Assembly: GCF_006345805.1 (NCBI RefSeq) | Contig: NC_043004.1 | Location: 103,602,001-103,666,000 of the forward strand | Source of the DNA: Octopus sinensis | Lineage: Eukaryota | Length of the DNA stretch: 64,000 bases | Reading direction: 5' to 3' | Shown: piece after piece, positions 15,191-42,939 of the stretch | How the letters are laid out: each line of letters begins with the position of its first letter | Numbering within the stretch: position 1 is the stretch's first letter | Made by a program: the position numbers and the translations under genes | Notes under the pieces: generated by a model | The model's database searches: none | What the model was told of the DNA's origin: nothing | Seen by the model: the letters and a program-made list of their open reading frames with translations, nothing else

Positions 15191-15266
15191 GTGTCACTGT
15201 CCTGAGCCTTATTGACAAACTTCATGACAGAAAGGAATCTTTTAGCCTGAAGGTCCTTAACATAAG
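15191..15266 (+). other. Candidate 76-nt internal exon of an unidentified host gene
   Basis: Strong acceptor TTCTTTTTCATCTTTTAACTTTACAG|G and donor AAG|GTATTT, in non-repetitive sequence. One open frame (VTVLSLIDKLHDRKESFSLKVLNI); no homology recognised. Confidence 0.35.
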
Positions 15267-16164
15267 GTATTTGCTTTATTACTTTCTTACGTTATATAGA
15301 CTTTATTTGCTTTTGTTCATTTTTTTTTAAACAATCCTCTGTTTAACTCTTGATATCTTGGTATCCAAATTTGATCTCGTTTCAATTATTCAGATCCAAA
15401 AGAATGGAAAGTCTGAAGCAATCCTTACAGTATTTGTCAGTGTGGGCGACACATCTGTGGAATTATTGTTGTGTTTAGGATCTGGGAAGCGGCATTGATG
15501 AATTGTCTGAAATCTTAGATTTCCTAAGTAGAAGTGATCTCAGTATTGGAGTGATGTCATAGTACAAGTGACATTTATTTTTAGAGTTGTGTATGGAATA
15601 CTTATATGTTGAGTACAAGTGATACTAGCATTTGAAGGGTGTCTGGCTTGTCGATCTATTACAAGTAAAAAGTCACACTAATGATTAGTGGGTGGGGTGT
15701 TCTTGGTACATCACAGCCTTGTTTTTCATCAATCAAACTAATGAGGTATTTGCATCTTCAATGTTCTGTTATTCTAAGGACAAATGTCACCAACACAGTA
15801 ACACACTTCTGTGCAATTGCATTGTTCTGAATACAAAGCCTTCAACATGCCATAGACTCTAATATAAGGATTACAGGCAAGTTCACCAGCATCAGTTCAC
15901 GACGAGGAAGATTCTCTGTGAGGAAAGCTTACCAAGAAAATATATCTATATCTCACCACTAATAGTTAAAAACTATTTTATTGAAAAAAAACTGAATTGA
16001 TGACGGTGAACATACTAGACATGTATATAAAGGTTAACTGTTAACTTTTAGCCCTTGGACAACTGTTTGACCATAGCTAGGATGAAAGGTGTTCTCTCTG
16101 TGACTAGTTTAACTTTGGGCGAAGCTTATCTGTGATTACTGTATCTGATATGTTCTCTTTTTAA

Positions 16165-16610
16165 CCGTTTTCATACCAACCCACCTGAGAGACTGTTCCA
16201 GGTTCTGTGATTAAAAAAACTTATTTTATAGTAATCTAAATTAAAAACCTTATGTTAAAATTTTGTGTTAATGTATGCTAGAAACACCAACTTAACCCTT
16301 TAACATTCAAACTAGCCATATTTGGTTGAAATATTCTACCTGCTTTATGTTGAAACCAGCCAGATCAAGCCTCTCACACTTATCCTACAATGTCATTTGG
16401 AATGTAAGCGATTACATCATCAAACTCCCAAAGCTATGAAATAATACATGATTACTTCAAACCAATGTGAATGAGAAACTATTACATTTGACTGAGTAAT
16501 CTGAATGCTAAAGGCTTAAAAGTTGCAAAGTTATTTTACGAAATTCTTCTCCTTTAAAATTAATTGAAACAAAGGCAGTGAATTTCAACAGGAATGTGGT
16601 AATGAAAGGG
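16165..16610. mobile_element. piggyBac-type MITE family 2 containing a nested family 1 MITE (16296-16515)
   Basis: Outer element TTAA|CCGTTTTCAT...ATGAAAGGG|TTAA; inner element TTAA|CCCTTTAACATT...AATGCTAAAGGC|TTAA. Mirrored at 17053-17497 and 17148-17367. Confidence 0.85.
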
Positions 16611-16774
16611 TTAAGGTGGTAGGGCAGGTCAAATGACTACATAAAGGCTCTCTCATTGGCTCCTGTCAGGTGTTGTGTTGTAATACACCCATAAAAGAAC
16701 AAGCAAACAAACAACAGATTTTTTTTCCTTTTCAGCCCTTCAAATAGTCAGGTTTAAAAATGGAGTTCATTGCA

Positions 16775-16990
16775 CATGGCTTAGTGGTTAGGGTATTCGG
16801 CAGTTTGTGAGTTCAATTCCTGGCAGTGTGTTGTGTTCTTTAGTAAGACACTTTATTTGATGTTGCTCCAGTCCACTCAACTGGCAAGGAAAAGTCATAC
16901 CTGTAATTCAAAAGGACATTCTTGTCATTATTGTCTCACACTAATTCTCCTTAAGAACTACGTCAAGTGTACTTGTATGAGTGGAGCACA
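16775..16990 (+). mobile_element. tRNA-derived SINE family C fragment in the inverted-repeat spacer
   Basis: TGGCTTAGTGGTTAGGG..GAGTTCAATTCC..GTTGTGTTCTT..AAGACACTTTATT..CAGTCCACTCAACTGGCAA, similar to 31402-31545. Confidence 0.7.
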
Positions 16991-18396
16991 CATACAAGTA
17001 CAGCCAATGAGAGAGCCTTTATGTAGTCACTTGACCTACCCTACCACCTTAACCCTTTCATTACCACATTCCTGTTGAAATTCACTGCCTTTGTTTCAAT
17101 TAATTTTAAAGGAGAAGAATTTCGTAAAATAACTTTGCAACTTTTAAGCCTTTAGCATTCAGATTACTCAGTCAAATGTAATAGTTTCTCATTCACATTG
17201 GCTTGAAGTAATCATGTATTATTTCATAGCTTTGGGATTTTGATGATGTAGTTGCTTACATTCCAAATGACATTGTAGGATAAGTGTGAGAGGCTTGATC
17301 TGGCTGGTTTCAACATAAAGCAGGTAGAATATTTCAACCAAATATGGCCAGTTTGAATGTTAAAGGGTTAAGTTGGTGTTTCTAGCATACATTAACACAA
17401 AATTTTAATATAAGGTTTTTAATTTAGATACTATAAAATAAGTTTTTTTAATCACAGAACCTGGGACAGTCTCTCAGGTGGGTTGGTATGAAAACGGTTA
17501 AAAAGAGAACATATCAGATACAGTAATCACAGATAAGCTTCGCCCAAAGTTAAACTAGTTACAGAGAGAACACCTTTCATCCTAGCTATGGTCAAACAGT
17601 TGTCCAAGGGCTAAACGTTAACAGTTAACCTTTATATACATGTCTAGTATGTTCACTTCCACTTGCTTAATTTCAGGATCAGGCTGTTCCATTGATCAGA
17701 TCATTTGGAACCTTCATTGTCATAACCGACAGCATGCCAATGGCTGTAACATTTCAGAACTCTACTTGCCAGAATAATTGGTGTAGATGGGGCTGGCACT
17801 TGATCTTCCAGTAAAACTAAGGGAAAATGTTGCCTTTTTTTTGTTCTGGTTTTTCAAATTCATCTTCATCGTTATTTTGATGTCCACTTTTCCATGCTTG
17901 CATGGGTTAGAGGGAATTGTATAAAGATGGATTTTCTTGTCACTTACACTCAACCTATTTCCAACGAAGGAAGGTAATACTTTCCTATGACCAGATATGT
18001 TTTCACAGAAGATTGAGCTTGAAGGACACCGCTTGCATGTTGGTGATATTTGTTTTCAACTGTCACACGATAGCAAAGCATAGAGACACTAACACACATA
18101 CACATGATGGGTTTCTTTTAGTTTTCCTCTACCAAATGCTTTCACAAAGCCTTGATTGACCCATGGTTATAACAAGAAATTTGCCCAAATTGTTATACAT
18201 GAGGCTAAACCCAGAACTATGTGGTTGGAAAGCAAACTTCATACCACACAGCCATGCTATAGCATTGATTGCCGGTACTATCTGTTGATTGTAATTCTTG
18301 ACAGAAATGTCACTACTTTTTGACCACAATAATTACAGTTACCAAAAAAAAAAAAAAAAAAACGAAATACATCACCCTTATACTATTGTCTTTTAA

Positions 18397-18616
18397 CCCT
18401 TTAGCATTCAGATTACTCTGTCAAATCTAATGCTTTTTCATTCACATTGTTTTCAATTAATCCTGCATAATCTTGTAGTTCTGAGAATTTGTTGATGTGA
18501 TGGTTTATTTTGAGGATGACATTGTAGGATATGAGTGAGAGGCCAGATCTGGATGGTTTGAACATAAAAGAAGTAGAAAATTTGGGCCGGACATGGCCAG
18601 TTTAAATGCTAAAGGG
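18397..18616. mobile_element. piggyBac-type MITE family 1 (220 bp)
   Basis: TTAA TSDs at 18393-18396 and 18617-18620; 12-bp TIR CCCTTTAGCATT / AATGCTAAAGGG. Confidence 0.9.
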
Positions 18617-18929
18617 TTAAAGTCATAAACAGTGTCACTTATTGATGTGATATTCCTGCATTCCAAATGGCACTCCTACTTTCCAAGTGTAGCAAAATTT
18701 TAATTTATATTCCTTACTTGTTTCCCATTGATTCTTGCTCCTACTTCAGAAGTAATAACTTCTTGTGGGGATGAGTTGATTCCCCTACCATCAAGGAGGT
18801 TGAATCATCTACAAAGGTTACTCAGACCAGTATTGTATTACTAGAGATTAGTCATTGACTGTTGAAATGGTAATATCCTGATGAATATCTGTCAGAAGTT
18901 TGGATCTGATGACTGAAGTGAACAGTTAA

Positions 18930-19133
18930 CCCTTTAGCATTCAATCCAGCTCTGTCTAGCCCTAATATTCTACCTGTTTTATATTAAAACTGACCAGATC
19001 AAACTCTCACACCTACCCTACAATGTCATTCTAAAGACATACAAATGTACCGTTGAAATCTTGAAGCTACAAGATAATGTGTGATTAATTCAAAAGTAAT
19101 GTGAATAAAAAAGCAATACGTTTAATGAAGAAA
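18930..19133. mobile_element. piggyBac-type MITE family 1, right end lost at an RTE fragment
   Basis: Begins TTAA|CCCTTTAGCATT; body collinear with 44162-44382. Confidence 0.75.
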
Positions 19134-19582
19134 TCATCATCATTTAGCGTCCACTTTCCATGGGTTGGGCGGTTCAACTGGGGTCTGGGAAGCCAGAAGG
19201 CTGCATCAGGCCCAGTCTGATCTGGCAGTGTTTCTACGGCTCGATGCCCTTCCTAACGCCAACCACTCCGTGAGTGTAGTGGGTGCTTTTTACGTGCCCC
19301 CTGCACAGGTGCCAGACGGGGCTGGCAAAACGGCCACGATTGGATGGTGCTTTTTACGTGCCACTGGCACGGGTGCCAGGCGAGGCTGGCAACGGCCACG
19401 AACGGATGGTGCTTTTTACGTGCCACCGGCACGGAGGCCAGTTGGGGCGGCGCTGGCAACGGCCACGATCGGACGGTTCGCTTACTTGTCACCGGCACTG
19501 GTATCACAGCTGCAATTTCCATTGATGTTGATCGACTTCGATTTTGGTTCTGCTTTCTGATATCTGATTTGATTTTGATTTT
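19134..19582 (-). mobile_element. Young RTE 3' UTR fragment
   Basis: CpG-retaining copy of the 3' UTR seen at 54661-55040, with tandem ~55-60 bp internal units. Confidence 0.85.
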
Positions 19583-20055
19583 ATGGTAAAGGGTGAAGTC
19601 AAACTTGTGTGAGTTTGCAGTGACAGTGTTGTTGATTGTCATACAACCCACAACAGCAGCTTCTAATGAGCCCTTGACTTCATGGGACTGACAATTGATT
19701 CCTCGTACTTCCAATGCACCAAACCCAGCACTACAGAGGGTTCAAATCAGAAGAGCTAAGGTGTCGGGTATTACATGATAACCTTGTTCTCTTCAGTATC
19801 CCTAGGCATTGGCTACTCTCCTTTCATCAAATAGAACTTGAACCTTATGTCTTAGTGTGCCACAGGAGATAGATGACACAGCCACTTGTAGTTGCTCAGA
19901 TATGTCAGAGACCAGCAGGACAAGCTAGGTTGTCTTGACAAATTCTGACCACTGAGGATGTTTATTTTTCTTGGCTTCAGATATCATGTCCTTCCTTATC
20001 CTTTCTTTCTTAATTGTGAAATCAAAAGGACCAACCACATTAAAAAAAACAAAAA

Positions 20056-20146
<91 letters not shown>

Positions 20147-20769
20147 TTCAACACAGACATATCACACACATACACACACCACTATTTTTATAAAGTCCAC
20201 TACTTCCCCCACTTCATTGATTTTCATTACCTCCTACTTTCCCTCATCCTCTCACCCTCTGCCTCCTTACCGTTTCCCCAGGTGTTTTAATTGTCTGCTT
20301 TTCTTTCTTATTGTTTTTCATCTTTTGTGCTTTAACTTTCTAAATACACTGCTTTACAAGTAAATTACCTTTTGTTGTTCTTTGTTATTTTCTTTATTTT
20401 ATTTTCTTATTTGTTTTTTTTTTGTTTGTTTTCCAATGCCAAATGGATTTTTAATTTATTTGCCGCTTTTTATACCTGTCTCACATGTTCATCTGCAGGA
20501 CCTTCACTGAATTTTTTGTTCTTTTTTACTTTAGATGTATTTCTTTTTCTCACTCCTACTTGCTGTTTGTTCTCTCCCTGACACCTCTCTCTCTCTCTCT
20601 CTCTCCCTCCCCCGTTTTCATTTTCTTTTTAGTTTTTTTTCCCCCATAATTATTAAGGGAAGCTTAACGAAGAATGTTCTGGTGAAAATAGTAGTAATCA
20701 GTATAAAGTTTATGTATGTGTTGGAGTCAAGAAGATATTGACTGACTGGCTGGTTGGCTCACTGTAATG

Positions 20770-21170
20770 TGCACATGCGCACAGATCCAACTGCAGACTG
20801 ATGCACGCATACACACAAGTGTGCATGGACACACACTTACATTAAGGTGTACACTCATACGCTAAGGTGCACAGACAGGTTTGCTAAGATGCAGATACGT
20901 ATGCTATGGTGCTTAGACATGTACATTAAAGTACACAGATACAGACAATAAGGTGCATAGATGCATGTTCTAAGGTGCATACACATGCTAAGGTGTACTA
21001 AGGTTCACAGGTACAGACAGTAAGGTGCACAATATGTGCTGAAGTGCAGACATGCTAAGGTGCACAGGCACATGCATTGAAATTCATAGGCAGACATATG
21101 CTGAGGTGCACTGACATGCAGTGTAGTGCACACATTGATTCATAGACGCATGCACTGAAGTGCATAGTAA
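20770..21170. repeat. Degenerate ~20-bp minisatellite (approx. CATGCTAAGGTGCACAGA)
   Basis: The core TAAGGTGCA recurs about every 18-24 bp. Confidence 0.75.
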
Positions 21171-21639
21171 ATGGATCACTATCAGTTTCAACTATGAGTA
21201 TTGAGTTGTTTAATTGACTGTACCTGCTCAATGATTTGGATTGTTATATGGCTGAGTATTTCATAGATGTGTATTCTTCATGCAATTTTTAGGTAGAATC
21301 AGGGTGTTGGTGTATGTGAGAATTCTAGACATTTGGATTATTCTATCAAATGTAATGCTTATTTATTCACTTTGTTTTGACTTTATCCTCTATTATCTTG
21401 TAGCCTTAAGTTTTCGATTATGTTACTGTACATTTGTTTAGACTAACATTGTAGGTTAGGTGCAAGAGGCTGAATCCAGCCAGTTTGAACATAAAACAGG
21501 AAGAATATTTTGGCTGAATATGGCTAGTTTAAAATCCGAGGTATGATAAAAGGTACCTTCCCAAAATGCTATGCCATGGGATTGAAACCTGTACCCTATG
21601 ATTGTTAAGCAACCTTCTTGATCATTTGGCAGTCATGTA

Positions 21640-22340
21640 TCTATCACATGCTGACACATGCTTGCAGTGTTGCATAGACAAATACAACTGTGCACTCATA
21701 TTTGCATACAGATATGCACATGTCATTGTTTTTATGCATGCAGGGACCTGCAGACTGCAGGGATGTGCACACATAGACATGCTCACACATGCAGACATGC
21801 ATGCATATATACATACAGTGGTGCACATACATACAGGCACATGCATTCATACAGGTATGAATGCAAGGTTACACAAATGCAAGGACACGATGACACTGAT
21901 GAGAACACACACACACATGTACACAAACAAGCATGCACACACACACTTGCATACTGACAAGGAAACACACACAGATGTATACATACAGGGTCTCTCACAT
22001 ACACACACACACTCTTGCATACATACAGGTACATGTACACATACATAGAGGGACGTGCACTCACTCACATATATACATACAGGATATAAAATACGTGCTT
22101 AGAGGGACATGCACATATAGGTACATAACGGGGACACACATGCATATACATATATACAGGGACGCACACATGTACGTACAGGGAGGTCACACATATATGT
22201 GTACAGGGACACATACGCATATAGATATATGAATACAAACATATATAGACGTCTGTACACACTCAGTCACACCTTCGCACACACACACACACACATGCAT
22301 GTACTCATGCACACACACACACACACATAGAGCTACATAT
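21640..22340. repeat. Degenerate CA/CATG/CAGG low-complexity tract
   Basis: Alternating purine-pyrimidine sequence with recurring ACATACAGG motifs. Confidence 0.75.
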
Positions 22341-22759
22341 ACACAGGTAGTTGAGTACATCCGGCAGACAATGTGCTTACCCACCTAGACTTTGTTACAA
22401 GACAGAGAGAAGCTACAATTACTGGTCACAGTGCTCTTTTGTATGTAGTTTACAACATGGGAGATGAGATAATTGTCTAAGATCAGGCGTGGGAGGGAGA
22501 AGGCTAAAGGTCGTGACTGCTGCTTGTTTACTAATGGTTTACTTGTATACTTTATGGCGTCGCATGGAATTTCATGTTTCCATTTTCTCAACCTCCTAAT
22601 AGCAACACTTCCTATCTTTGCTCAGGTGTGTGTGTGTGTGTGTATCTGTCTATTTGTATGCTTGTGTGTGGAAGAGTGTATGCGTAATTATATTTATGTA
22701 TAAGTTTTGTGTAAATATACATATGCATATGCAGGTTTTTATACTTGTGTGCGTGTATA

Positions 22760-22965
22760 TACTCTTTACTCTCTTTTACTTGTTTCAGTCATTTGACTGT
22801 GGCCATGCTGGAGCACCGCCTTTAGTTGGGCAAATCGACCTTAGGACTTATTCTTTGTAAGCTTAGTACTTATTCTATCGGTCTCTTTTGCTGATTTGCT
22901 AAGTTATGGGGACGTAAACACACCACTATCGGTTGTCAAGCGATGTTGGGGGAGGAAAAACACAA

Positions 22966-22999
<34 letters not shown>

Positions 23000-23170
23000 G
23001 ACAGGCGGCTTCTTTCAGTTTCTACCAAATCCAGTCATAAGGCTTTGGTCGGCCTGAGGGTATAGTAGAAGACACTTGCCCAAGGTGCCACACATGCCAC
23101 ACACTGGGAATGAACTCGGAACCATGTGGTTAGTAAGCAAGCTACTTACCACACAGCCACTCATGCGCCT
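22760..23170 (-). mobile_element. Full-length SINE family A
   Basis: Reverse complement of the 1661 structure. Confidence 0.88.
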
Positions 23171-23171
23171 G

Positions 23172-23202
<31 letters not shown>

Positions 23203-23204
23203 AT

Positions 23205-23254
<50 letters not shown>

Positions 23255-23256
23255 AT

Positions 23257-23311
<55 letters not shown>

Positions 23312-23324
23312 CACACACATACCT

Positions 23325-23385
<61 letters not shown>

Positions 23386-23539
23386 ATGTAAAAGTACATA
23401 GCACACTCTGTAAAGTGGTTGGTGTTAGGAAAGCATCCAGTCATAGAAACCATGTCTAATCAGACTGGAGCCTAGTGCAGCTCTCCAGCTTGTCAGCTCT
23501 GGTCAAACCATCGAACACATGCCAGCATAGCAAATGGAC

Positions 23540-23767
23540 CCTTTTCCTTCCGGTCTTTCAAAATGTGACCTCGTGTGTACCGTTGGTGATTTTTTTTCCT
23601 CTTTCTTCCCTTCTCTGGATCTTTCCTTCTCCTATGTTTCCGACGAAGAGCTCCGCTCGAAACGTTAAACCCTCCTTTCCTTCTTTCCTGAGCGTCCAAT
23701 AATACTATATTTGTTCCACGTCCTCGTGTTGTTGTGTTTTTTTGTGCTTTCTTGTTTGGATTAACTA
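23540..23767 (+). mobile_element. Penelope-like element terminal-repeat fragment, copy 1
   Basis: Shares about 170 bp with 54462-54634 and the same 3' end GTTTGGATTAACTA before a dinucleotide repeat. Contains a hammerhead-like motif. Confidence 0.65.
23636..23670 (+). ncRNA. Minimal type I hammerhead ribozyme-like motif (GUU site)
   Basis: GTTT-CCGACGA-A-GAGC-tcc-GCTC-GAAA-cg-TT-AAAC: stem I GTTT/AAAC, stem II GAGC/GCTC, palindromic ACGT minimal stem III. Confidence 0.6.
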
Positions 23768-24140
23768 TATATATATATATATATCATCCATACAATTTCA
23801 AAATAAGGTGATTAAAATCAAATTAAATGCAGAGCAATCCTCAGTTGCATAAAGACATAGAATTTTATTAAATTAAAACAGGTGGATGTAATGATTGCAT
23901 TGTTCGATTAAATGGAGTTGCTTGAAACGATCGTACTGCATTATCTCTGGATATATATATATAGTTATCTAATGTCCATTTGCTATGCTGGCATGTTTTC
24001 AATGGTTTGACCAGAGCTGGAGAGCTGCACCAGGCTCCAGTCCGGTTAGACATGGTTTCTATGACTGGATGCCTTTCCTAACACCAACCACTTTACAGTG
24101 TGTGCTATGTGCTTTTACATGGCATATATATATATATATA

Positions 24141-24440
24141 TCATCATCATCGTTTAACGTCCGTTTTCCATGCTAGCATGGGTTGGACGGTTCAACTGGG
24201 GTCTTGGAAGCCCGAAGGCTGCACCAGGCCAGTCAGATCTGGCAGTGTTTCTACAGCTGGATGCCCTTCCTAACGCCAACCACTCCGTGAGTGTAGTGGG
24301 TGCTTTTTATGTGCCACCGACACAGGTGCCAGACGAGGCTGGCGAACGGCCACGCTCGGATGGTGTTTTCTACATGCCACCGGCACGGAGGCCAGGCGAG
24401 GCTGGCACGGCCACGATCGGATGGTGTTTGTTACGTGCCC
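24141..24440 (-). mobile_element. Young RTE 3' UTR fragment inserted in (TA)n
   Basis: (CAT)n tail, body as at 54661-54960, flanked by TA repeats on both sides. Confidence 0.85.
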
Positions 24441-25228
24441 ATAGCACGTATATATATATATATAATGTGTGTGTGTGTGTATGTAAAATTTCATAAGTTG
24501 CATGTACCTGTATGTGTGTGTTTCTGTAATATGTTTGAGTTCTAAACATCAGTATTATAAGTGAATATATTTTCTAACCTAGCTGTCCAATATAGAGATC
24601 AATAAACTAAGAACAGGCCGAAGGGTATGAGCTAAACTCAGTTCTGCGACAAAACTCAATAAGAAACTGAAAGAATGTATATATGCATATACAAGTGTAT
24701 ATACTAATGTGTGTGTGTGTGTGTAATGCTAGTACATATTAACATGTTTATGCTAATGTGAATGTGTCTATTCATGTGTATGTAGTTGCAATGTATGAAA
24801 AGGTTTTAAAGAAGCAAGTGGGAGTCATTAGTCAGTGACCTTAGGAGCTGTCTTTTATAGAGAAGGGACATAACAGTAGAGGAAGGTGAACTGGTATCAT
24901 CCCTAATGTCTGACTTTTCAGTACTTGCTGTCATCATTATTATAGGGGACCCAATAGGGTGGGTTTGTATTTCAGCTGTCTTTGTGCTGCACTGTTTGAC
25001 TGGCTAGAATGGCTGTTGTATTATGGGTTGTCATATGACTGGGATAGTGGTTATTATTTAGCCCCAGGTCAGCCCTGATTGAGCAGACCTATGATCAAAT
25101 GTGTTTTAGTTGTAACCTTCACATCTCTTACTCAGACATAGTGTATCTAGCACTGCTTTATGTAATGTGTGTTTCCTACTTTTAGGTAGTAAGAGGTAAT
25201 TTGAGTGAGTTTTGTCTGCTATCTTTAT

Positions 25229-25600
25229 AGGCACAGGAGTGGCTGTGTGGTAAGTAACTTACGTACCAACCACATGGTCCCACTACGTGGCACCTTGGGC
25301 AAGTTTCTTCTATTATAGCCTTGGGTTGACCAAAGCCTTGTGAGTGGATTTGGTAGGTGGAGACTGAAAGAAGCCCATCATATATGTATGTATGTGTTTG
25401 TGTGTCTGTTCTTTGTCCCACCCCACCATCACTTGACAACCGATGCTGGTGTGCTTACGTCCCCATAACTGAGCAGTTCGGCAAAAGTGACCGATAAAAT
25501 AGATACTAGGCTTACAAAGAATAAGTCTTTGGGTCGATTTGTTCAACTAAAGGCAGTGCTCCAGCATGGCTGTCAAATGACTGAAACAGATAAAATAGAA
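25229..25600 (+). mobile_element. SINE family A (diverged)
   Basis: Head GGCACAGGAGTGGCTGTGTGG through tail AAATGACTGAAACAG. Confidence 0.82.
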
Positions 25601-25709
25601 GGATACTTCTATCAGGTCAAGCAACCCTCATATATATTCTCTTATTCTTTTACTTGTTTCAGTCATTTGACTGTGGCCATGCTGGGGCACCATCTTGAAG
25701 GGTTTAGTT

Positions 25710-26031
25710 CAGGGTTTCTCAACTATTTCTTATCTATGGACCCCTTCAATTACTATTTTATTCTGGTGGACCCCTATAGCCATTTGCTGTTTAAAAACTA
25801 GTTTTATAGAAACTTCTTTCAAAATTCCTATTCTATTTTTCACAAATTAACTTGTGTAGGTTGAACTATGTAAAATGTTAGAGAAAGAAACTTTTCTGTT
25901 TCTTGCAATACATACATCTAGCGCAAAAATTTTTTCTGGGGTCCTTAAAATACAACTGTGGGTCCCCAATTTGCTAATTTGCTTGTGTGGACCCCGAAAA
26001 ATCTTATATGGACCCTGGTTGAGAACTACTG
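25710..26031. mobile_element. hAT (Charlie-like) MITE inserted in a minus-strand SINE
   Basis: TIRs CAGGGTTTCTCAAC / GTTGAGAACTACTG; perfect 8-bp TSD GTTTAGTT at 25702-25709 and 26032-26039. Confidence 0.9.
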
Positions 26032-26495
26032 GTTTAGTTGAACAAATCGAGCCCAGGACTTTTTTTTTAAGCCTAATATTCTATCGGTCTCTTTGCCAAA
26101 CTGTTAAGTTACAGGGATGTAAACAAACCAACAACGATTGTCAAATGGTGGTGGGAGACAAAGACACACATGCACACACAAATATATATACATGCATACA
26201 CATACAACGGGGTTTCTTTCAGTTTTTATCTACCAAATCCACTCAGGGCTTTGATCAGCTCCAGGCTATAGTAGAAACGACTTGCTTCTTGCCACACAAC
26301 CATGCTTGTGTCTATATATACGTAATATATGTATGTGTATATATACATACACACACACATTAATATTGAAAAGTGAGAATGAATACTCAACACCGCATTG
26401 CTGGATAAATATTCTTTGAGTGAAGCATATATACATATATATATAAAAGGCGGTGCTCCAGCATGGCCGCAGTCAAATGACTGAAACAAATAAGA

Positions 26496-26570
<75 letters not shown>

Positions 26571-29499
26571 TATACAGGGCATCTCATAATAATGGGGCAC
26601 ATTTTATTTGTCATTTATGAGGGTGTGAGTACTTACCAATTCTTGTTCCACTCCTAGTTACTTGTATTTAAAGTGTGTCCCTTCATTATGAGTGTGTGTG
26701 TGTTTATATATGTATGTATGTGTGTTGTATCTTCTGTACAAATAGATGTGTGGCTGCTAATGTTAGATTTAGAGCACCACATAGCTCATCACACTCCCGT
26801 CTGCTTCCTGTGTAGTGGTTAAGCATCTGCTATACTTAGTAGTGTTACTAGTTATGATGATATACAGAGCAAGTGTAATAGAAATTACTATAAACACAAG
26901 TTTATATAGTTGGTTCCTACACATGTTTCACCATTGTGGTTGGTTTTGAACTCTGCATTGGATGTGCCAAGTGCAACTGGATGCTTAATCACAATGGATC
27001 ATCATATAAATGCAAATATAATTCTCTTTCTCTCTCTACTGATTTCCACATTCTATGCTTGAGTAGTTTCTTCACAGGACCTGAATTATGAGTTCATTTA
27101 AGACCTCAGATTGAATCAAGTGTGAATGTACACACCCCCAAGGTGTTTTTCTTTTTTCATTTTATTATTTTGGCAGTTACAGGCAACAGTGGTCCTTGTC
27201 ATAATTACATATTCTGTAAAGATTAAAGAGCTTTGATCTACGTTGAAGCATATAATTGGTTATTTAGATTTATCTTTGATATCTAACCTATCTAACAAAA
27301 CTCTGAGTTCAACTACTATCATTTTTTTTTCACTTAATAAAAAGCAAAGTGTTTTAGTGTCTTGATAAATATAACTACTATTTCTTAGTCTTGATTGGTT
27401 AGCTTCCTCTCACTTATAATGTCATTGCACTCTGACTAAAACAAAAGCAAGTATTTCTACAGTATAAGTCTGAGGGGAATTGGACAGGATTGAATTTCTT
27501 TTCTTTCTCTTTTTTTGGTCAGGAATGTGATTATGACAATGATGTGATACAATGTTAAAATAACATTTTCTCAAGTCCACAAGGAGCAGTATAATGAATT
27601 AACTTGATCATAGTATATAGCTGGTACTGGTTTTCATCATTATCAGTGTTATGTCCACTTTTCTACAGTATTGGTTAAACAGGAATTTTTGAGATTGCTT
27701 TGTAGTTGGATGTCCTTTCTAAGGCTAAACCTTTTCGTTGTCCCATTATATGCAAGGATATGGTAACCCTTATCTAAAAACTTGGACACAAGGACATATG
27801 TTATCAAGTCTAAACAGATGGACAGCTCACTGCTAATCAATCATTAAGATGTTGGCCTACTGCTGAAAGGGTCAAAAGTTTGTACCCTGTTTCTAGTACT
27901 TATGCTCTCTTTGCCTACTCACAGTAGCTCAGTTCATCACCATCCTTGTTGAATGCCCTGTTTCCCCTGCCGGCATGGGCTGCATTGTATGACAGAAACC
28001 AATAAGCCAGAGGACTTCCCTGAGCAACATCTGTTTTGGCATGATTTTTTTTACAGCTGTATGCCCTTCATGAGTTCAACCACTTTACAAAATGTTCCAA
28101 GCTGTTTTTTTGGTGGCATCAGCACTAGTGAAGTCACCAAGTACTCACAAGACAAGACTCCTCAACTGAGTGGGGTATAATATTGAAGAATGCAAAAGTA
28201 TGGTGGGACAGGACCAAGCATCTTGCTGAAGAAGAGAATACATGGATTCTATATTCTGTTTTCTGTAGAGCATCAATAGTTGAAGCTGAAGTATCTATGG
28301 GCCCTGAACAGAAGGGCCAGTCATTGGAATGTAGTCCTTATCTTAAGGAAGTGCTTTCTCTTAGAGTTCCTTGGTGGTGATAGAACCCAACAGTTGGACA
28401 GATTTTTGAATGCTGCTCATGATTGAGTGAGAGGAGGTGTAACGATGTTTTCTTGATATAGTGTTTGTGTTTTCAGCCAGGGCTGTGTGGTAAGACACTT
28501 GCTTCCCAACCACATGGTTCTGGGATCAGTCCCTCTACATGGTACCCTGAACAATTGTCTTCTATAGTCTTAAGCTGACCAATGCCTTGTGGGTGAATTT
28601 AGTAGATAGAAACTGAAAAATGCCCATTATATATGTGTGAGAGTATGTTTATCTTTCGGAATGGTCATTCCGAAGTATAACAATATCTGTTTCAACACAT
28701 GACTTCACATAAAAAATCTTGCACAACAAATATATTATGTTTATCATTATGTTTGTCTCTCACCATTTGACAACCAGTGATTGCTTATATCCCTGTAACT
28801 TAGCAGTCGGCACACGAGACTGATAGAATGTGTCCTGGGGTAAATTTGTTCAACTGAAACCCTTCAAAGTGTTTGCCCCAATATGGGTGCAGTCCAGTAA
28901 CTGAAACAAGTAAAAGGTAACAGATAGTTCTGGATCCCCTTGATTTGATTAAAGCAGTGGATCATCATAGAGTTTATAAAGAAAGTCCTTGTATATAAGC
29001 GCTTGACACAACTGGGTTGCAACAATATTGTACACTTCATGTGGCACGTTTTGATTTATTACTCAATATTTACAAATATATTATGAAGATCTGGATGTTT
29101 ATATCTTTGATGTATTATTAAACTTTCATAATATTTTGCAGTCATAATTTTTATAAGTATCAAGTGGGCATGTGAGTGTATAAATTGTAATGTCAACATA
29201 GTTTTTAATTTTGTTTTGTGTTTCTTGGTTTGAAGTGAAGACTGTTTTATTTTAACTTTTTTTTAAAGCGTCCTTTGTTTGATCATGGTTGTTGGCGACT
29301 TCAATTATGCTAAAGACTTGTTTTATTTTCATGTTGCTTTCATTTATTTCTTGATTTATTTTATTGTTGCTGGAAATTTTGAATTTCTAAATTTTTTTTT
29401 GTTTGTTTCAGTTTATTTTTAGCATGTAATTGTCACTTTTGAATGTATGATGAAATGAAAAGCAAATAAAAGGAAAACAACCCTGTTTTTAACATGGTT

Positions 29500-29554
<55 letters not shown>

Positions 29555-30576
29555 TGTTTCAATCTGATCCTTGTGTCCAATGGATGAGATTAGTGGAAGT
29601 TAATCTGGAAGTGGAGGTTAGTGTGTTTTAAGGGGATGTTTCATTGAGAAGCTGTTCAAAGACCGAGCAAAATGTGTACAGGATTAAGGGAGCATTTGAT
29701 AGAGTCCAGGCAGTGTGAAGAGCCATAAAAATATGGTGACAATGTCTCTGAAATACAACTCACCCCCTTAATCTCCGAGTTCAGCAGAGCATTCACTAAA
29801 TTAACATTGAAATGTAATTGTCTTGCTAAAGGTTCAATGTTCAGTGAAATATCTGCGTTCGGGGCTCTTACTGTACAGAAGCAAATCCATGGGAAAACAT
29901 GCATGATTGAACATGCAATCATGCATGCTGTCACGCAGTCTCGTGTTCTTGTTCGCATACATATTCATCCACATGTACTTGGTGTGCGGATGTGTACTCA
30001 CTTTCATGCTCTTTAGCTCCTGTGTGAATTTACACTTTTTTCACTCTCTCCTCTCTCTCACTATCCGACATTTTTTTAATTTTTGTTTTCCAGCTCTCCC
30101 CCCTTTCATTCTCTCTCTCTCTCCTTCGCTCATGCAGGCATACTTACTCTCCACTCTCACTTTTTCATTTTCACATCCTTTCTGTCTTCGATGCATACAT
30201 TGTTTTTTGTTTTTTTTTCTTTCTTTCTATTTCATCTATGCACTCGTGTGTGTCCTGCCTTGTGTTTTATTTACTCCCTCTTACTTGTGTTCTGGCTGTC
30301 TCATATTTGCACACCGTCTCATTCTCTCCCTCATTCCCTTCTGCGTCTGCATATTACAGCTTCATATCCAAATTGGAGGCCTTTTTTTTTTTTTCTATCG
30401 GGTCCCTTGTTTGGAATCTTGTGAGATTAAATACTACTACTACTACACACACTATGTATTATATATATATCTTGTATCTTCCATAGTCTGGCAACATCTC
30501 TTTAGGACTATTTGTTTCTCTTCCATCATTTAGCATTAAATAGATACTTGAAAAAAATTACCATGAAATTACCACA

Positions 30577-30972
30577 GGCGCAGGAGTGGCTGTGTGGTAA
30601 GTAGCTTGCTAACCAACCACATGGTCCCGGGTTCAGTCCCACTGCGTGGCATCTTGGGCAAGTGTCTTCTGCCATAGCCCTGGGCTGACCAATGCCTTGT
30701 GAGTGGATTTGGTAGACGGAAACTGAAAGAAGCCTGTCGTATATATGTATATATATATGTGTTTGTGTCTCTGTGTTTGTCCCCCTAGCATTGCTTGACA
30801 ACCGATGCTGGTGTGTTTACGTCCCTGTCACTTAGCGGTTCGGCAAAAAGAGACCGATAGAATAAGTGCTGGGCTTACAAAGAATAAATTCCGGGGTCGA
30901 TTTGCTCGACTAAAGGCGGTGCTCCAGCATGGCCGCAGTCAAATGACTGAAACAAGTAAGAGTAAAAAGAGT
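30577..30972 (+). mobile_element. Full-length SINE family A
   Basis: Near-identical to 1661-2058. Confidence 0.9.
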
Positions 30973-31401
30973 ATGAACCAACAGGTTTTTTTTTTTTTTT
31001 GTGTTTTAATCTAAAGAAATACATATTTTATTGAGGAGATAAATGTTGCAGAGATACAGTAGCTTATTAAGAGGTTTATAAAGTGTAATTAATTTAAAGG
31101 GTGAAGCATTGAATGCCTTATGCAAATGTTTTTTACATTGAAATTTTCCCCCTTTGTTGGAGAAAACTAAAATAATCTAGCAGCAGAAAGGAGGAAGATA
31201 GTTTTGAGGATTTAATTATTTTTCAGATTTTCAACTGAATTTATTTGCTTAGAGAAAGGACAGTCTGATCTGTGTAAACATGGGACAGCTATGACTTATG
31301 ATATCATCTTTTAAGCCTCGTCAGTATAGTACAGTCTAACCAAGTTTGATTTTGCTACCACTTGGTTTTGGGTTTCATGTCATTGTGCTGCACCTTGGGG
31401 A

Positions 31402-31630
31402 GGCGTGTGGCTTAGTGGTTAGGGCATTGGACCCACGAGCATAAGATTGTGGTTTCTATTCTTGGACTGGGCGATGCGTTGTGTTCTTGAGCAAAACACT
31501 TCATTTCACGTTGCTTCAGTCCACTCAGCTGGCAAAAATGAGTAATCCTGTGACAGACTCTTGTCCCGTCCAGGTAGGGAATAAATACACCTTGGCAACA
31601 GGGAAACCGGCCATAAAGAGTCAGTATGAC
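31402..31630 (+). mobile_element. tRNA-derived SINE family C nested in an old family-A-like SINE
   Basis: Head GGCGTGTGGCTTAGTGGTTAGGGC. The host SINE breaks at CACCTTGG (about 31398) and resumes at about 31640. Confidence 0.7.
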
Positions 31631-32139
31631 TCAAGAAGGTCCTTTTTTTTCTTTACCTTAGTCAAGCCAGTTGTGAATTTGGTAGATTGGAAACTGTGCT
31701 GAAGCTCATCGCATATGTGTGTCATTGTGTTTGTTTATCGCTTCTCCACCACTTGACAGCTGATGTTGTTTCGTTTACATCACTGTAACTTAGTGTTTCA
31801 GCAAAAGAGATTGATGGAATAATCGCCAAACTTAAAAAAATAATCAGATTGATTAGTTTGAAACCCTTCAAAGCAGTGCCCCCATATGGCTGCAGTTTAA
31901 GTAATGGATAAAATATATACAAAATAGTTATGAATACCTTGAATGATGATAATAATAATAATAATCCTTTTTAATATAGACATTAGGTCTGAAATTTTGT
32001 GAGCGGAAGTTGATTATAAGGTCCCCAGTTTTTCACTGGTACTTATTTCATTAACCCTGAAAGAATGAAAGGTAAGGTCACTGCCAGCTTCCACCTTAAA
32101 TGATGATGATTTTTATAATAATAATAATAATGATAATAA

Positions 32140-32495
32140 TAAGAGCACTCAGAGATCACAAACCTCCGCCAAAGCAACACCAACATCCTCTCAACTATTA
32201 GCCAGAGATGATTTTTAAAATGAGAATATCTGGAATAAACTTGACTGCTCTCACAAATGAGAATACTAAAAAGGAACCTGACCACTCTCAAAAATTAAGT
32301 AAAAAAACAGGAAAAATAATCCAGAATCCTTGTCCAGTACCAGATTGATCCGAAAATCTAATCATTTCATGCTAGTCATGAGGCCAAACATCTGAAAGTT
32401 TCACCCAAATCCATCCAGCGATTCTTGAGATATCTTTCCATGGACAAACAAACAAACACGACTGAAAACAATACCCCTGCCTTCACTGAGGCGGA

Positions 32496-32500
<5 letters not shown>
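32140..32500. mobile_element. Helentron-associated (HINE/DINE-1-like) non-autonomous element
   Basis: Sub-terminal inverted repeats ACCTCCGCC (32162-32170) / GGCGGAGGT (32490-32498), short (CAAA)n near the end, inserted in (TAA)n. Confidence 0.65.
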
Positions 32501-32529
<29 letters not shown>

Positions 32530-33110
32530 TATTCACCACTGAGGGTTCACAAGAATGTTACAACTCAATACAATGTGGGCTTACATAAAGAAGCATATAA
32601 AAAGTAGTAAAACAATATAAATTCTAACTGAAAATGGTTCTCTAAGAGAGGGAGACTGCCAGGGGTTGCTTGTGAAAACCCCACAAAACCACAATTGCCC
32701 TGGCCACTTGGGTAAGTGCCCCTTCCACATCTTCCTTCAATCTACAGGGACATGCTTACAGCACACCTGTTTACTTGGACCATTCTTGTCGCATTCACCC
32801 TCCTTTCAATGAAATTGCTGGGAGACAGCACTTACCCTCTCTACTCTCATTTTCCTTTCAAGTGAAACTTTTTCAAGTTGATGAGAAATGTGTCTGTATT
32901 CAGCCCTTTCAATCTGGTCTGCTACACAACCTCTTTCACTGAGACTACCAGACAAATGAACACCACCTGCCCTCCACAGCGAAAGGAAGGAGGCATGACC
33001 ATCTTCATAATGAACTTAGCTGATAGACAGATCCATTCTACACGTGATAGCAAGTGTTTTGACATAAACTCACAAGTCAGCAATACTCTGGCACTGGACG
33101 AGATCATGTG
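32500..33110 (-). pseudogene. L1/Tx1-like LINE 3' fragment
   Basis: Minus strand reads HDLVQC..(frameshift)..ICLVVSVKEVV*QTRLKG, resembling the zf-RVT end and downstream W..R motif. It ends in AATAAA followed by (TAT)n. Confidence 0.6.
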
Positions 33111-34751
33111 AAACAGTTATAAGAATGATATGCTCACCATATCTAAAAAGGGGAGCCTTACAAACCAACTGGGGGAGCTTCTATGTGGTTGCTCAACCTG
33201 TTATAAATAGTCTATAAATCTCCCCTCAAACCAAATTCTACCACCTTAAAAAAAAAGGACACAAAGAATAGTGTAGTCTTTGATACTCATAAAAGAAATA
33301 GAAAGATCTCAACTGGAACAGTATCGGTCATTAGACCTGGTGGATCAAGGCTGACCTAGTGCTAAACACCAACAGAGGAACGTTACTGTTTTTCTTTTCT
33401 TTTACTTGTTTTAGAGTGTAAAAAGAAATAATGAAGAGGTAGAATATGGTGATTTGAACCAGGAATGTTTTAAGAGCCAATGTAAGAAGAAGATTGGTTG
33501 TAGACCGAGTTTCTTTTGTTAAGTAACTGGTTTAATGAGTGGAAAATTATATAGTTGCTGGTTACTCTGCTCTGGATAGCTGATTACTGACCTTTGCTGA
33601 TCTTTTCATACATTAACACACTTTTTTTTCATTCACACTGGACATTATCATACTCCTGACTTGGAGGTGGGGTGGGGTGGCGGCTAGAGAGTAAATTGGA
33701 TAGACTTGGCTCGTTTTTCTTTTGTCATTCTTGTATTCTTTGATCTTCCCAACTCTCGTCTATTGTATAATAAACATTTTACTCTGAGCCAGTGATGTAG
33801 CTTCTTGCTAGAAACAGCAGTCAAATCTCCCTCAGATTACTCCCTATCATTTTAAAATGTGTTGTCCTTGGGATATTAACAAGGTGGAAGAGTTTTTATG
33901 GAATACTTTCGATCTTAAGTGTGCTGGACAAGGGGCATTTAAACTGGCCATATCCAGCCCAAGTATTCTACTTGATCTATGTTCAAACTGGCCAGATTTG
34001 GCCACTCACACCCACACCTTCCCTATAATGTCCATTCTAAAAAGTCAACAGTTCCATCATTGAAATCTCAAAGCTAGGAAATAATGCAGGATTAATTCAA
34101 AACAATGTGAATATATAAGTAATCATTACATTTGACTGTACCATTGAGTGCTGAAGGAATAAACAAGCAACATTTTACTCAGCTCTCTCTCTCTCTCCTG
34201 CTCACACATTTTGAGCAAAAACATATTTATCTGGATTTAGCCTTTTTAGTTGTAGTCAAGAAAGAGCCATCAAGAAAGTTACTAACAATCGACCATTTTT
34301 TTCCCTCTTTTTATCTTATTTTTTCCCGTTTTATGTTAATTTTTTCCCATACTATTTTTCCCATTATAAAGGTGGTGCTCCAGCATGGCCACAGTCAAAT
34401 GACTGAAACAAGTAAAAGAGTAAAAAGAGTATACTGTCATGAGTGGGCTGATTTTCTTTAGAGCCATTTAAAGTTCCAACTTGTTGTTTATCCCGGGTCA
34501 GCTCTGTCCAAATGTCTTGGTATTCTTTGCCGATCTATTGTTCATAGTTGAGAACCACACAGTATCCTCTGAATTAAACAATATACATGATAGAGCTGTC
34601 CTTTCTCTTAATTTCTGTGTTAATTGGTGAGCTGTGCTACAGAACACCAATGCAGTGGCAAGGGAAAGCTAATATTTTTAGATATATCCACCGGACAGTA
34701 GAGCCAGCCTATCGCGTGATGTGTCTTTGAACAGTCTTTGTGTGGTGTGAC

Positions 34752-35180
34752 AGTGTGTGTGTGTGTGTGTCTGTCTGCTTTGCTCTATCTATCTATCTTG
34801 GTCTGTGTATGTGTCAGCCTGTCTGTCTGCTTGTCCATGTGTCTACTAGTCTGTTCATTTATGCACTGATGTCTGCCTCAGTCCATGGATGTGTATGTGT
34901 GTTTGTCTCAGTTAATGCATATGATTGTGTCTGTCTGTGCACTTGTATGCTGGAGTGCACACATACACATTTGCATGTGCACTTGCATCAGTACATGTAT
35001 CTGCATGCAAGTCTGGGTGCCATATATGGATATGGGTGTATTTACACATGTGCACACATGCATGTGTGTGTGTGCATGCCAGTGCTAATAGCTGGCTATG
35101 TTCCTTTCTACCAGTGGATGCATATTTCCAGCTTAGCTTATCTAAATATGTGTGCGTGTTTGTATATACGTACATGTGTA
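34752..35180. repeat. Degenerate TG/TCTG/TGCA low-complexity tract
   Basis: Seen directly in the sequence. Confidence 0.7.
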
Positions 35181-35385
35181 AATTTGATCTTGTCATCAGT
35201 AAAGGCTTTCTCCACTCCTCGGATGAACTTTTGTAATCTTTTCAACTCTGTGTTTGTTTGTGTGCCTGTGTATTTTAGTTATAATACAACATTAAACACT
35301 CCCATTTCGAAAAAATATATATATTTGTGTCTATATGTGTAAATCTGCATATGTATGCACACACATTGTGTGCATATTATATATT

Positions 35386-35425
<40 letters not shown>

Positions 35426-35456
35426 GGAAATATGCAAATATATATATATAAATTAT

Positions 35457-35510
<54 letters not shown>

Positions 35511-36974: not shown

Positions 36975-37860
36975 GTTTCAAATTTTGGCACAAGGCTATC
37001 AATTTTAAGGGCAGTGGGTTAATTGATACCATTGACCACAGTACTTGACTGGTGCTTTATTTTATTGACCCTAGAGGGATGGAAGGCCAAGTTGACCCTG
37101 GTCGAATTTGATCAATAAATGTAAAAAGCTGAAAGAAATTCTGTGTAGCACCACCCCTCCCCCGCAAAATCTTTTAGGGATTCTGCCAACTTATTTATTG
37201 CCTTTGGTAATTTACTAATGTAGACAAGGCCAGCAATTAACAGGATAGATTTCTAGTTGATCCCATCGACCCCAGTACATGGCTGGTATATTATTTTATT
37301 GGTCCTTAAAAGATGAAAGGCAAAATTGATGGTTGTGGGATTTTAACTTAGAATGTAGGAAGCCAAAATAAATACCACAAGGCTTTTTGCCTCAAGCTGT
37401 CATGATTCTGCCTATCTATAATAATAATAATCCTTTCTACTAAAGGCACAAGGCCTGAAATTTGGGGGTAGGGGACTAGCCAATTACATCAATCCCAGTA
37501 TTCCATTGGTACATAATTTATCAACCCTGAAAGGATCGACCTTGGCAGAGTTTGAACTCAGAATGTAAAGACAGACAAAATACCACTAAGCATTTTGTCT
37601 GTCATGCTATCGATTCTGTCACCTTACTGCCTTAATAATAATAATAATCCTTTCTACTTTAGGCACAAGGCCTGAAAATTTGGGGGAATGAGCTAGTCAA
37701 TTAGATCAACCCCAGTACTCAACTGGTACTTAATTTATTGACCCTGAAAGGATGAAAGGCAAAGTCAACCTCGGCAGAATTTGAAATCAGAATGCAAAGA
37801 TTGATGAAATACTGCTAAGCATTTTACCCAGTGTGCTAATGATTCTGCCAGCTTGTTGCC

Positions 37861-37890
<30 letters not shown>
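36975..37890 (-). mobile_element. Head-to-tail cluster of about four SINE family B copies
   Basis: The core GGATGAAAGGCAAAGTCGACC..TTTGAACTCAGAA recurs about every 210-240 bp; the later copies are separated by (TAA)n. Confidence 0.8.

Positions 37891-37891
<1 letters not shown>

Positions 37892-40401: not shown

Positions 40402-40444
<43 letters not shown>

Positions 40445-41655: not shown

Positions 41656-41699
<44 letters not shown>

Positions 41700-42884: not shown

Positions 42885-42939
<55 letters not shown>

What the first reader, a model, noticed from the sequence alone, without database searches (positions are those of the whole stretch)
16006..17656. ~98% identical 656-bp inverted duplication able to form a long hairpin
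Seen: arms 16006-16661 and 17002-17656 are reverse complements, with about 11 substitutions (about 9 transitions) and one 1-nt indel by hand count, around a 340-bp spacer. The arms include flanking sequence on both sides of the same nested MITE pair and share its damaged GGC end. This points to a local duplication after MITE insertion, not two independent insertions or a TIR transposon. The transition-rich divergence argues against a simple assembly artefact. Inference: if transcribed (a candidate exon lies 740 bp upstream), it would give ~650 bp of dsRNA. That is an ideal ADAR hyper-editing or Dicer endo-siRNA substrate, and siRNAs from it could target both MITE families in trans. Extensive A-to-I editing is established for coleoids.
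Basis: partly seen in the sequence, partly recalled or inferred. Interest (0 to 1): 0.72.

Follow-up and report, generated by a model that had tools for sequence, protein, structure and literature searches.

The report
Fold-back repair scar in octopus intron
A 655-base piece of an octopus intron was copied backwards into a neighbouring repeat 340 bases away, likely during repair of a DNA break, so the unspliced RNA is predicted to fold into a long hairpin that is likely an ordinary editing target rather than a gene-silencing device.

Summary
Observation confirmed: arms 16006-16661 and 17002-17656 differ by 9 transitions, 2 transversions and 1 indel. Not an assembly error: contigs of other public runs bridge both new junctions. 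Not a transposon: no third copy found, no target duplication. New here: the right arm is the copy. It splits a SINE-like repeat (23 of 29 copies run straight across), and its inner junction carries a 12-base backward copy of adjacent DNA plus microhomologies, the scar expected of fold-back template switching at a break. The unit lies 740 bases into the 56.6-kb last coding intron of an LRRC41-like gene. Editing is plausible but not shown. The siRNA idea is weak: molluscs reportedly lack DICER2 and siRNA Argonautes (PMC11114477), and 1 of 636 arm 21-mers has a perfect match elsewhere in 1.66 Mb. Equally tight inverted repeats occurred twice in 1.4 Mb of control DNA, both multi-copy repeats. The scan reached similar repair-scar readings on other genomes (e1-9930471, e1-7152427, e1-9557319), none at this place. 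Verdict: new member of a known kind; low interest.

The parts
15191..15266 (+). Penultimate coding exon of an LRRC41-like gene (about aa 1069-1094 of P0002)
   Evidence: Internal piece of spliced contigs in 4 of 4 RNA-type runs laid; tblastn with P0002; family name from a UniRef title of cluster member P0005, Pfam gives only sub-threshold LRR hits
15267..64000 (+). Last coding intron, 56.6 kb, running on beyond the window to window position 71890; holds the inverted repeat near its 5' end
   Evidence: Next exon at 71891 in fetched neighbouring DNA
15870..16030 (.). Dispersed repeat that is cut by the outer end of the duplication; continuous on the left, truncated on the right, so the left arm is the donor
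   Evidence: 13 of 13 genome copies fetched align across position 16006 (several only 4-5 nt past it)
16006..16661 (+). Left arm, the original (donor) sequence
16161..16614 (.). Outer TTAA-flanked MITE-like element (limits include the TTAA), interrupted by the inner one; mirrored at 17049-17501
   Evidence: Genome copies at 73-80% identity, many joining 16160-16295 to 16514-16614 directly; ends read from the sequence
16292..16519 (.). Inner TTAA-flanked MITE-like element with the damaged right end; mirrored at 17144-17371
   Evidence: Window copies at 70-81% identity; ends
16662..17001 (+). 340-nt spacer (loop of the predicted hairpin)
16772..16990 (+). 5' part of the SINE-like repeat that received the insertion
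   Evidence: 40 scored of 986 candidates match at 76-81%; alignment
16968..16983 (+). Template of the first fold-back; 16978-16983 can pair with 16987-16992 over a 3-nt loop (5 of 6 bases today)
16991..17002 (+). 12-nt exact reverse complement of 16968-16979: the snap-back templated insert at the inner junction
   Evidence: Absent from 29 of 29 intact copies; chance rate 82 of 159,398 random complex 12-mers; bridged by contigs of X6 and X9
17002..17656 (-). Right arm, the derived backward copy; its first 5 nt equal the bases that 19 of 29 intact repeat copies have at the break
17654..17658 (+). Outer junction: 3-nt microhomology with the repeat's remaining part and 2 extra bases that make a 5-nt direct repeat
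   Evidence: Read from the sequence against the copies; bridged by a contig of X1
17659..17740 (+). 3' part of the split SINE-like repeat
   Evidence: 23 of 29 copies continue into it; gap in the copy as small as 1 nt in L020, L035, L040

Best explanation
This is a single-copy backward duplication inserted into a SINE-like repeat inside an intron, likely made when one end of a DNA break folded back on its own strand twice and copied it, and it is likely a neutral passenger whose pre-mRNA hairpin would be edited by ADAR and then discarded with the intron. Shown: direction of copying, the split repeat, the 12-nt inverted junction insert, near-zero loss at the target (0-4 nt), intronic position, presence of both new junctions in other runs. 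Inferred steps: (1) break in the repeat near 16990 and resection leave the top strand single-stranded; (2) its 3' end snaps back over a 3-nt loop and adds 10 nt; (3) it releases and re-primes on the same strand about 340 nt upstream (5-nt microhomology if it first touched the far end of the break, otherwise 1-4 nt) and copies about 650 nt; (4) it rejoins the far end by a 3-nt microhomology with a small slip. Both templates lie on the same strand upstream of the break, which is why a fold-back in cis is the simplest route. The arms have since drifted apart evenly (1.7%). Because about 54 kb of intron must still be transcribed before the 3' splice site exists, the hairpin would stand on nascent RNA for many minutes (elongation rate recalled, 1-4 kb/min), time enough for ADAR.
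For: Split repeat: 23 of 29 copies. Donor side: 13 of 13 copies of the flank repeat cross 16006. Junction insert: exact 12-nt inverted copy, 0 of 29 intact copies have it, chance 5e-4. Microhomology bases in 19 of 29 copies; the primer allele in 3 of 29. No third copy among 40 scored of 330 and 40 of 786 candidates; no target-site duplication round the unit. Junctions in other runs: inner junction X6 record 17 (16875-17068, 0 differences) and X9 record 30; outer junction X1 record 5 (17350-17903). Neutral drift: of 7 differences that could be polarised, 4 are derived on the left and 3 on the right; 5 of 9 transitions give G-U and 4 give A-C in sense RNA (read); longest identical run 163 nt, p = 0.39. 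Mechanism precedents: snap-back SD-MMEJ (PMC5728401, passages); local fold-back inversions at breaks (PMC11724301, abstract and section 15). Editing prior: octopus is among the two most hyper-edited species tested and long near-perfect duplexes are the target (PMC5625713, passages); ubiquitous squid edits fall in introns, 3' UTRs and repeats (PMC9068888, passages).
Against: The 650-nt tract is far longer than the fold-back inserts in the yeast study (mostly 5-34 bp, some over 150) so the enzyme is not identified, and a fork template switch leaves the same letters. The 5-nt microhomology rests on the family majority, not on a pre-insertion allele of this locus; no empty allele was seen. No single read or contig spans both arms. 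In X8 no right-arm junction was listed and only left-arm letters were read at 17560 and 17616, which is unexplained (low depth, collapsed contigs or true absence). X3's outer-junction contig has only 30 nt on the arm side, under the tool's 31-nt rule, and X3 may be the source sample. No editing was observed; the RNA label of the runs is a guess and DNA may contribute to intronic cover.
Confidence: 0.7

Rival explanations
1. Same structure, made at a stalled replication fork by template switching (FoSTeS/MMBIR) instead of by a resected break end folding on itself.
For: Long templated tract, several switches, short microhomologies, almost no loss at the target.
Against: The 3-nt-loop snap-back and the use of one strand for both templates are explained most simply by a free single-stranded end. 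The sequence cannot separate the two routes fully.
Confidence: 0.13
2. The copy was templated by the nascent pre-mRNA (reverse transcription at the break by a repair polymerase or a retroelement enzyme).
For: The template is the sense strand of a transcribed intron, so RNA would give the same orientation; the window holds reverse-transcriptase fragments.
Against: No poly(A), no target-site duplication, ends fall inside repeats and not at transcript ends; no A-to-G excess in the copy: 1 of 3 right-derived changes is A>G in donor sense.
Confidence: 0.06
3. The hairpin has acquired a cis role: it recruits ADAR to the exon 740 nt upstream, or shifts splicing or intronic 3'-end formation of the LRRC41-like gene.
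For: Inverted Alu pairs induce editing several hundred nt away (PMC4053975, abstract); low-depth contigs cover the intron just behind the exon in X9 and X20, and one X9 contig leaves the reference near 15990; ATTAAA at 16210 and 16240.
Against: The exon has 0 differences in 4 of 4 spliced contigs (contigs drop minor variants); its longest predicted helix is 10 bp and it has no long complement within 12000-19500; the same intronic cover is seen in X20, whose intron is 5.8% diverged and likely older than the duplication; no sign of selection on pairing.
Confidence: 0.07
4. Hairpin-RNA locus that feeds Dicer and silences both MITE families in trans.
For: A 650-bp near-perfect duplex is predicted; 36 of 636 arm 21-mers have a match with at most one mismatch in 1.66 Mb, which scales to many sites genome-wide.
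Against: Reported loss of DICER2 and siRNA Argonaute in molluscs (PMC11114477); intronic position; 1 of 636 21-mers with a perfect outside match; the families are old, median 75% identical to the arm.
Confidence: 0.03
5. A long-TIR (foldback-type) transposon, or an assembly artefact.
For: 4 of 4 other tight inverted repeats tested in this genome are multi-copy repeats, so this is the usual source here; no read spans the whole unit.
Against: No further copy, no target-site duplication, outer left end inside an intact repeat, right arm alone splitting a repeat; both new junctions in contigs of other studies.
Confidence: 0.01

Closest known systems
[quoted passage not shown]
   Same: Short inverted primer repeat with a small loop, limited synthesis that makes a longer inverted repeat, rejoining by microhomology.
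   Different: Here a second switch copies about 650 nt from 340 nt away; the passages read describe use of repeats up to about 30 bp from the break.
Local fold-back inversions at double-strand breaks (yeast; PMC11724301, abstract and section 15)
   Same: A resected end pairs with its own strand, extends, is displaced and joined to the other end with 0-5 bp of microhomology, leaving an inverted duplication with a spacer.
   Different: Mostly 5-34 bp (some over 150 bp) and a 41-nt loop with a 10-bp primer; here 655 bp, a 340-nt loop, a primer of at most 5 nt, two rounds, and fixed in a germ line.
Intronic inverted-repeat dsRNA substrates of ADAR (inverted Alu pairs; palindromic Harbinger repeats of frog; PMC5625713, passages)
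   Same: Long, nearly perfect duplex predicted on a pre-mRNA, built largely from repeat DNA.
   Different: Formed by a one-off local duplication that includes unique sequence, not by two insertions of a family or a palindromic element; editing not shown here.
Endogenous hairpin-RNA/endo-siRNA loci (Drosophila hpRNA, plant inverted-duplication loci; recalled, not from a call)
   Same: Origin by inverted duplication; long fold-back.
   Different: No own transcription unit seen, no small RNAs tested, pathway genes reported lost in molluscs, few perfect targets.

Membership tests
Templated fold-back insertion (snap-back SD-MMEJ / template switching) | Inserted DNA is an inverted copy of DNA near the break | tested here: met
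Templated fold-back insertion (snap-back SD-MMEJ / template switching) | Inverted primer repeat able to form the priming hairpin | tested here: met
   5 of 6 bases pair today over a 3-nt loop, 6 of 6 with the allele in 3 of 29 copies
Templated fold-back insertion (snap-back SD-MMEJ / template switching) | Microhomology at the switch points | tested here: inconclusive
   5 nt inner (from 19 of 29 family copies, not from an empty allele) and 3 nt outer
Templated fold-back insertion (snap-back SD-MMEJ / template switching) | Dependence on polymerase theta or delta and on resection | not testable with these tools
   historical event
TIR / foldback transposon | Further copies of the whole unit in the genome | tested here: not met
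   2 full matches only, among 40 scored of 330 candidates
TIR / foldback transposon | Target-site duplication and an empty site that joins the two outer flanks | tested here: not met
   no duplication; the left flank repeat continues into the left arm and the right flank continues the spacer's repeat
ADAR hyper-edited intronic dsRNA | Both arms on one transcript | tested here: inconclusive
   both lie in one intron on the sense strand; RNA-type contigs of X9 bridge both inner junctions at depth 5.6 and 7.9 against 49.6 for the spliced exon, but the RNA label is a guess
ADAR hyper-edited intronic dsRNA | Long stable duplex | tested here: met
   predicted only:
ADAR hyper-edited intronic dsRNA | Clusters of A-to-G changes in RNA against matched DNA | not testable with these tools
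   only contigs were served, no matched DNA; none listed
Endo-siRNA hairpin locus | Phased 21-22 nt small RNAs from the arms | not testable with these tools
   no small-RNA reads served
Endo-siRNA hairpin locus | Dedicated siRNA Dicer and Argonaute in the organism | tested here: inconclusive
   one Dicer_dimer match; Argonautes not searched; loss in Mollusca reported by PMC11114477
Endo-siRNA hairpin locus | Well-matched targets in trans | tested here: not met
   1 of 636 21-mers perfect in a 1.66-Mb sample (0.06% of the genome), control SINE 299 of 404
Known structured RNA family (Rfam) | Match to a covariance model | tested here: not met
   0 matches at E <= 1 in 15300-18300

The most novel reading that the evidence does not exclude
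A two-step fold-back repair event planted a 650-bp perfect duplex next to a coding exon in one octopus lineage, and it now acts as an ADAR landing pad that creates lineage-specific editing or a shifted isoform of the LRRC41-like gene; alleles or sister species without the right arm would make it a natural experiment on how new editing sites arise in coleoids.
Probability: 0.07. Interest if true: 0.6.

Novelty: new member of a known kind. Interest (0 to 1): 0.22.

Why it matters
As it stands it is a well-preserved record of break repair in a mollusc germ line: the junction lets each copying step be read, and the tract is longer than those in the experimental papers read. As double-stranded RNA it is one of probably thousands in this genome (2 equally tight pairs in 1.4 Mb of control DNA, about 3,900 genome-wide, 95% range 470-14,000), so it changes little. 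It would matter more if it proved to drive editing or isoform choice of its host gene, because a dated, single-copy hairpin beside an exon gives a clean with/without comparison.

Tried and rejected
1) A terminal exon at 15394 that would put the hairpin in a 3' UTR: rejected; no 15266-to-15394 joint, the exon is internal in 4 of 4 spliced contigs and the next exon is at 71891. 2) A genome-wide class of single-copy inverted duplications like this one: rejected for now; of 12 other pairs (>=100 nt, >=92%, spacer <=1.1 kb) in 1.66 Mb, 7 had whole-arm matches in the sample, 4 of the remaining 5 were searched and all 4 are multi-copy (for the 2.1-kb pair only the inner arm end was searched), 1 was not tested. 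3) Gene conversion between arms: no sign (p = 0.39). 4) Selection for pairing: no sign (5 G-U, 4 A-C). 5) RNA edits fossilised in the copy: no sign (only 7 of 11 differences could be polarised). 6) RNA runs: no RNA holder on record was listed; bin 16064-16132 and the intron before the exon have no cover in 4 of 4 RNA-type runs, which is not used as evidence either way. 7) 8 of 24 listed runs were laid, each on a stretch with one arm only, so no contig could be shown to span the whole unit; long tables were cut, so an empty-site joint may be among rows not shown. 8) Rfam: nothing. 9) Paper search for LRRC41 with octopus: 0 papers; no other search for this locus was made, and no supplements were read, so editing-site tables in cephalopod papers may already list sites here. 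10) An exon-like stretch at 7943-8003 seen by eye has no match in P0002 and was dropped.

Full report
Observation. The arms 16006-16661 and 17002-17656 are reverse complements with 9 transitions, 2 transversions and a 1-nt indel (alignment), around a 340-nt spacer. This is the longest inverted pair in the window. Both arms contain an outer and an inner TTAA-flanked MITE-like element and flanks on both sides; other copies of these families are only 70-81% identical in the window and 75% at the median in the wider sample. The TTAA-CCC ends resemble piggyBac-type elements (recalled, not tested). The shared damaged end is real but 6 of 29 other copies share it.

Organism and gene. A search with the candidate exon found one protein, P0002, named by its source as an uncharacterised Octopus protein; its cluster holds proteins of three Octopus species, one titled LRRC41 by UniRef; Pfam gives only weak LRR hits. 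Mapping P0002 on the window plus 200 kb of fetched neighbouring DNA puts all other exons outside the window: the previous one about 430 nt before it, the next at window position 71891. In 4 of 4 RNA-type runs laid, from four studies, 15191-15266 is an internal piece of a spliced contig with 0 differences. The inverted repeat therefore lies 740 nt into a 56.6-kb last coding intron, on the sense strand.

Is it real? Contigs of 4 DNA-type runs were laid on 16662-18300. The inner junction of the right arm is bridged by X6 record 17 (127 nt and 67 nt on the two sides, 0 differences), the outer junction by X1 record 5 (307 and 247 nt). X8 shows the left inner junction but no right-arm junction among the rows shown, and only left-arm letters at 17560 and 17616; this is left open. 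In the RNA-type run X9, record 30 bridges the right inner junction (59 and 172 nt) and record 29 the left one. Three studies other than X3's thus hold a right-arm junction; none spans the whole unit. The reference letter at 17560 was read in 0 of 4 DNA runs, so one of the 11 differences may be private or an error.

Which arm is the copy? The spacer ends in a SINE-like repeat with about a thousand candidate copies. In 23 of 29 copies fetched, the part matching 16777-16990 runs directly into the part matching 17659-17740, with a gap of 1 nt in the best three. The right arm therefore sits inside this repeat, with almost no loss. The outer end of the left arm lies inside another repeat that 13 of 13 copies cross. 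So left is donor, right is insertion. No third copy was found (40 candidates scored in each) and there is no target-site duplication. The head of the split repeat looks tRNA-derived by eye; family membership was not tested.

The junction scar. Between the repeat and the arm stand 12 nt (16991-17002) that are the exact reverse complement of 16968-16979. No intact copy has them (0 of 29), and random complex 12-mers have such a match within 50 nt in 82 of 159,398 trials. The bases before them can pair over a 3-nt loop, as a snap-back primer would. The first 5 nt of the arm equal the bases that 19 of 29 intact copies have at the break; the last 3 nt equal the start of the remaining part, followed by 2 extra bases that form a short direct repeat (low weight). 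Both templates are on the top strand upstream of the break. I infer two rounds of fold-back synthesis by one resected end and microhomology rejoining. This matches snap-back SD-MMEJ (PMC5728401, passages) and local fold-back inversions in yeast (PMC11724301, abstract and one section) in kind, but the tract is longer than reported there, and a fork template switch or an RNA template cannot be excluded.

Age and drift. The arms differ by 1.7%. Intronic contigs of run X20 (organism E) differ from the window at 37 of 640 nt, 5.8%, so the duplication is likely about 0.3 of the age of that split if the arms evolve independently. One X20 contig spans the outer-inner MITE junction (16213-16378, 12 differences), which suggests that the nesting is older than the duplication. 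Derived changes are split 4 left, 3 right among 7 that could be polarised; there is no bias towards G-U pairs and no unusual identical run.

How unusual? In seven control blocks (1.4 Mb) two other pairs reach 300 nt and 95% within 10 kb, which scales to about 3,900 (470-14,000) genome-wide. I first thought these were a class of local duplications; 4 of 4 tested proved to be multi-copy repeats. So a duplex this tight is common here, but its single-copy origin was not met again in the sample. PMC5625713 (passages) already reports an exceptionally high share of near-perfect dsRNA-forming loci and hyper-editing in octopus.

Function. The duplex is predicted with confidence. Low-depth contigs cover the intron just behind the exon and both inner junctions, which fits nascent RNA at the start of a long intron but could include DNA. 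No A-to-G cluster was listed; the A>G at 16698 is also in three DNA runs, and contigs drop rare variants, so editing is neither shown nor refuted. On prior knowledge (PMC5625713; PMC9068888, passages) editing is likely. The siRNA reading is weak: PMC11114477 (passages) reports loss of DICER2 and siRNA Argonaute in molluscs and a diverged helicase box in cephalopod DICER1; one Dicer_dimer match was found here; 1 of 636 arm 21-mers has a perfect outside match in the sample, 36 with one mismatch allowed, against 299 of 404 perfect for a young SINE. An editing-inducer role of the kind shown for inverted Alus (PMC4053975, abstract) is not excluded, but the exon has no long predicted helix and no change in the contigs.

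Literature searches: listings only, apart from the papers named above; LRRC41 with octopus, 0 papers. No supplements were read. Earlier scan notes: none near this place; similar repair-scar readings on other genomes are unchecked notes, not support; two notes on fossilised RNA edits prompted the polarisation test, which was negative.

Verdict. A real, single-copy, templated inverted insertion with a readable repair scar, in an intron; likely neutral and likely edited. New member of a known kind; interest 0.22.

Noticed in passing
L178:8598-9452 (G000:C17 near 20.129 Mb): Young multi-copy element with 341-nt inverted ends; many copies 98-100% identical, often in arrays with about 476-nt spacing, one end abutting a (TA)n run.
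   Followed up: partly
L124-L125 (G000:C3 60,189,926-60,195,057): 2.1-kb inverted arms, 96.9% identical, 981-nt spacer; the inner arm end has at least 39 further copies at 99% that stop at the same base. A strong dsRNA source if transcribed.
   Followed up: partly
L224:2986-3842 and L158-L159 (G000:C8 near 50.183 Mb; C12 near 30.130 Mb): Two more long-inverted-end repeat families, 81-96% identical copies. Such families may explain much of the high dsRNA potential reported for octopus.
   Followed up: partly
window 15670-15990: X9 record 27 (478 nt) matches perfectly to an A-run at 15990 and then carries 157 nt that were not placed on 14960-17001: chimeric path through the repeat, allele difference, a skip across the hairpin base or an alternative RNA end; unresolved.
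   Followed up: no
window 15267-15990: Low-depth RNA-type cover directly behind the exon in X9 and X20 (depth 5-9 against 16-50 for the spliced contig), with an open exon-like frame at 15395-15478 ending in a stop; no splice to it was seen.
   Followed up: partly
window 17560: Reference letter of the right arm not read in any of 4 DNA runs; private change, collapsed contigs or consensus error.
   Followed up: no
window 18390-18620 and 18926-19123: Two further copies of the inner MITE-like family within 2.5 kb, 71-79% identical, in both orientations; they could form weaker alternative duplexes.
   Followed up: no
window 55252-56721, minus strand: Three open frames with reverse-transcriptase-like text including a YADD motif: fragments of a non-LTR retrotransposon inside the same intron (family not tested).
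   Followed up: no
P0004, P0007: These two cluster members end differently just before the last three exons of P0002; annotation gap or alternative 3' end.
   Followed up: no
window 52800-53700 and 61470-63730: Long pyrimidine-rich low-complexity arrays with strong strand skew.
   Followed up: no
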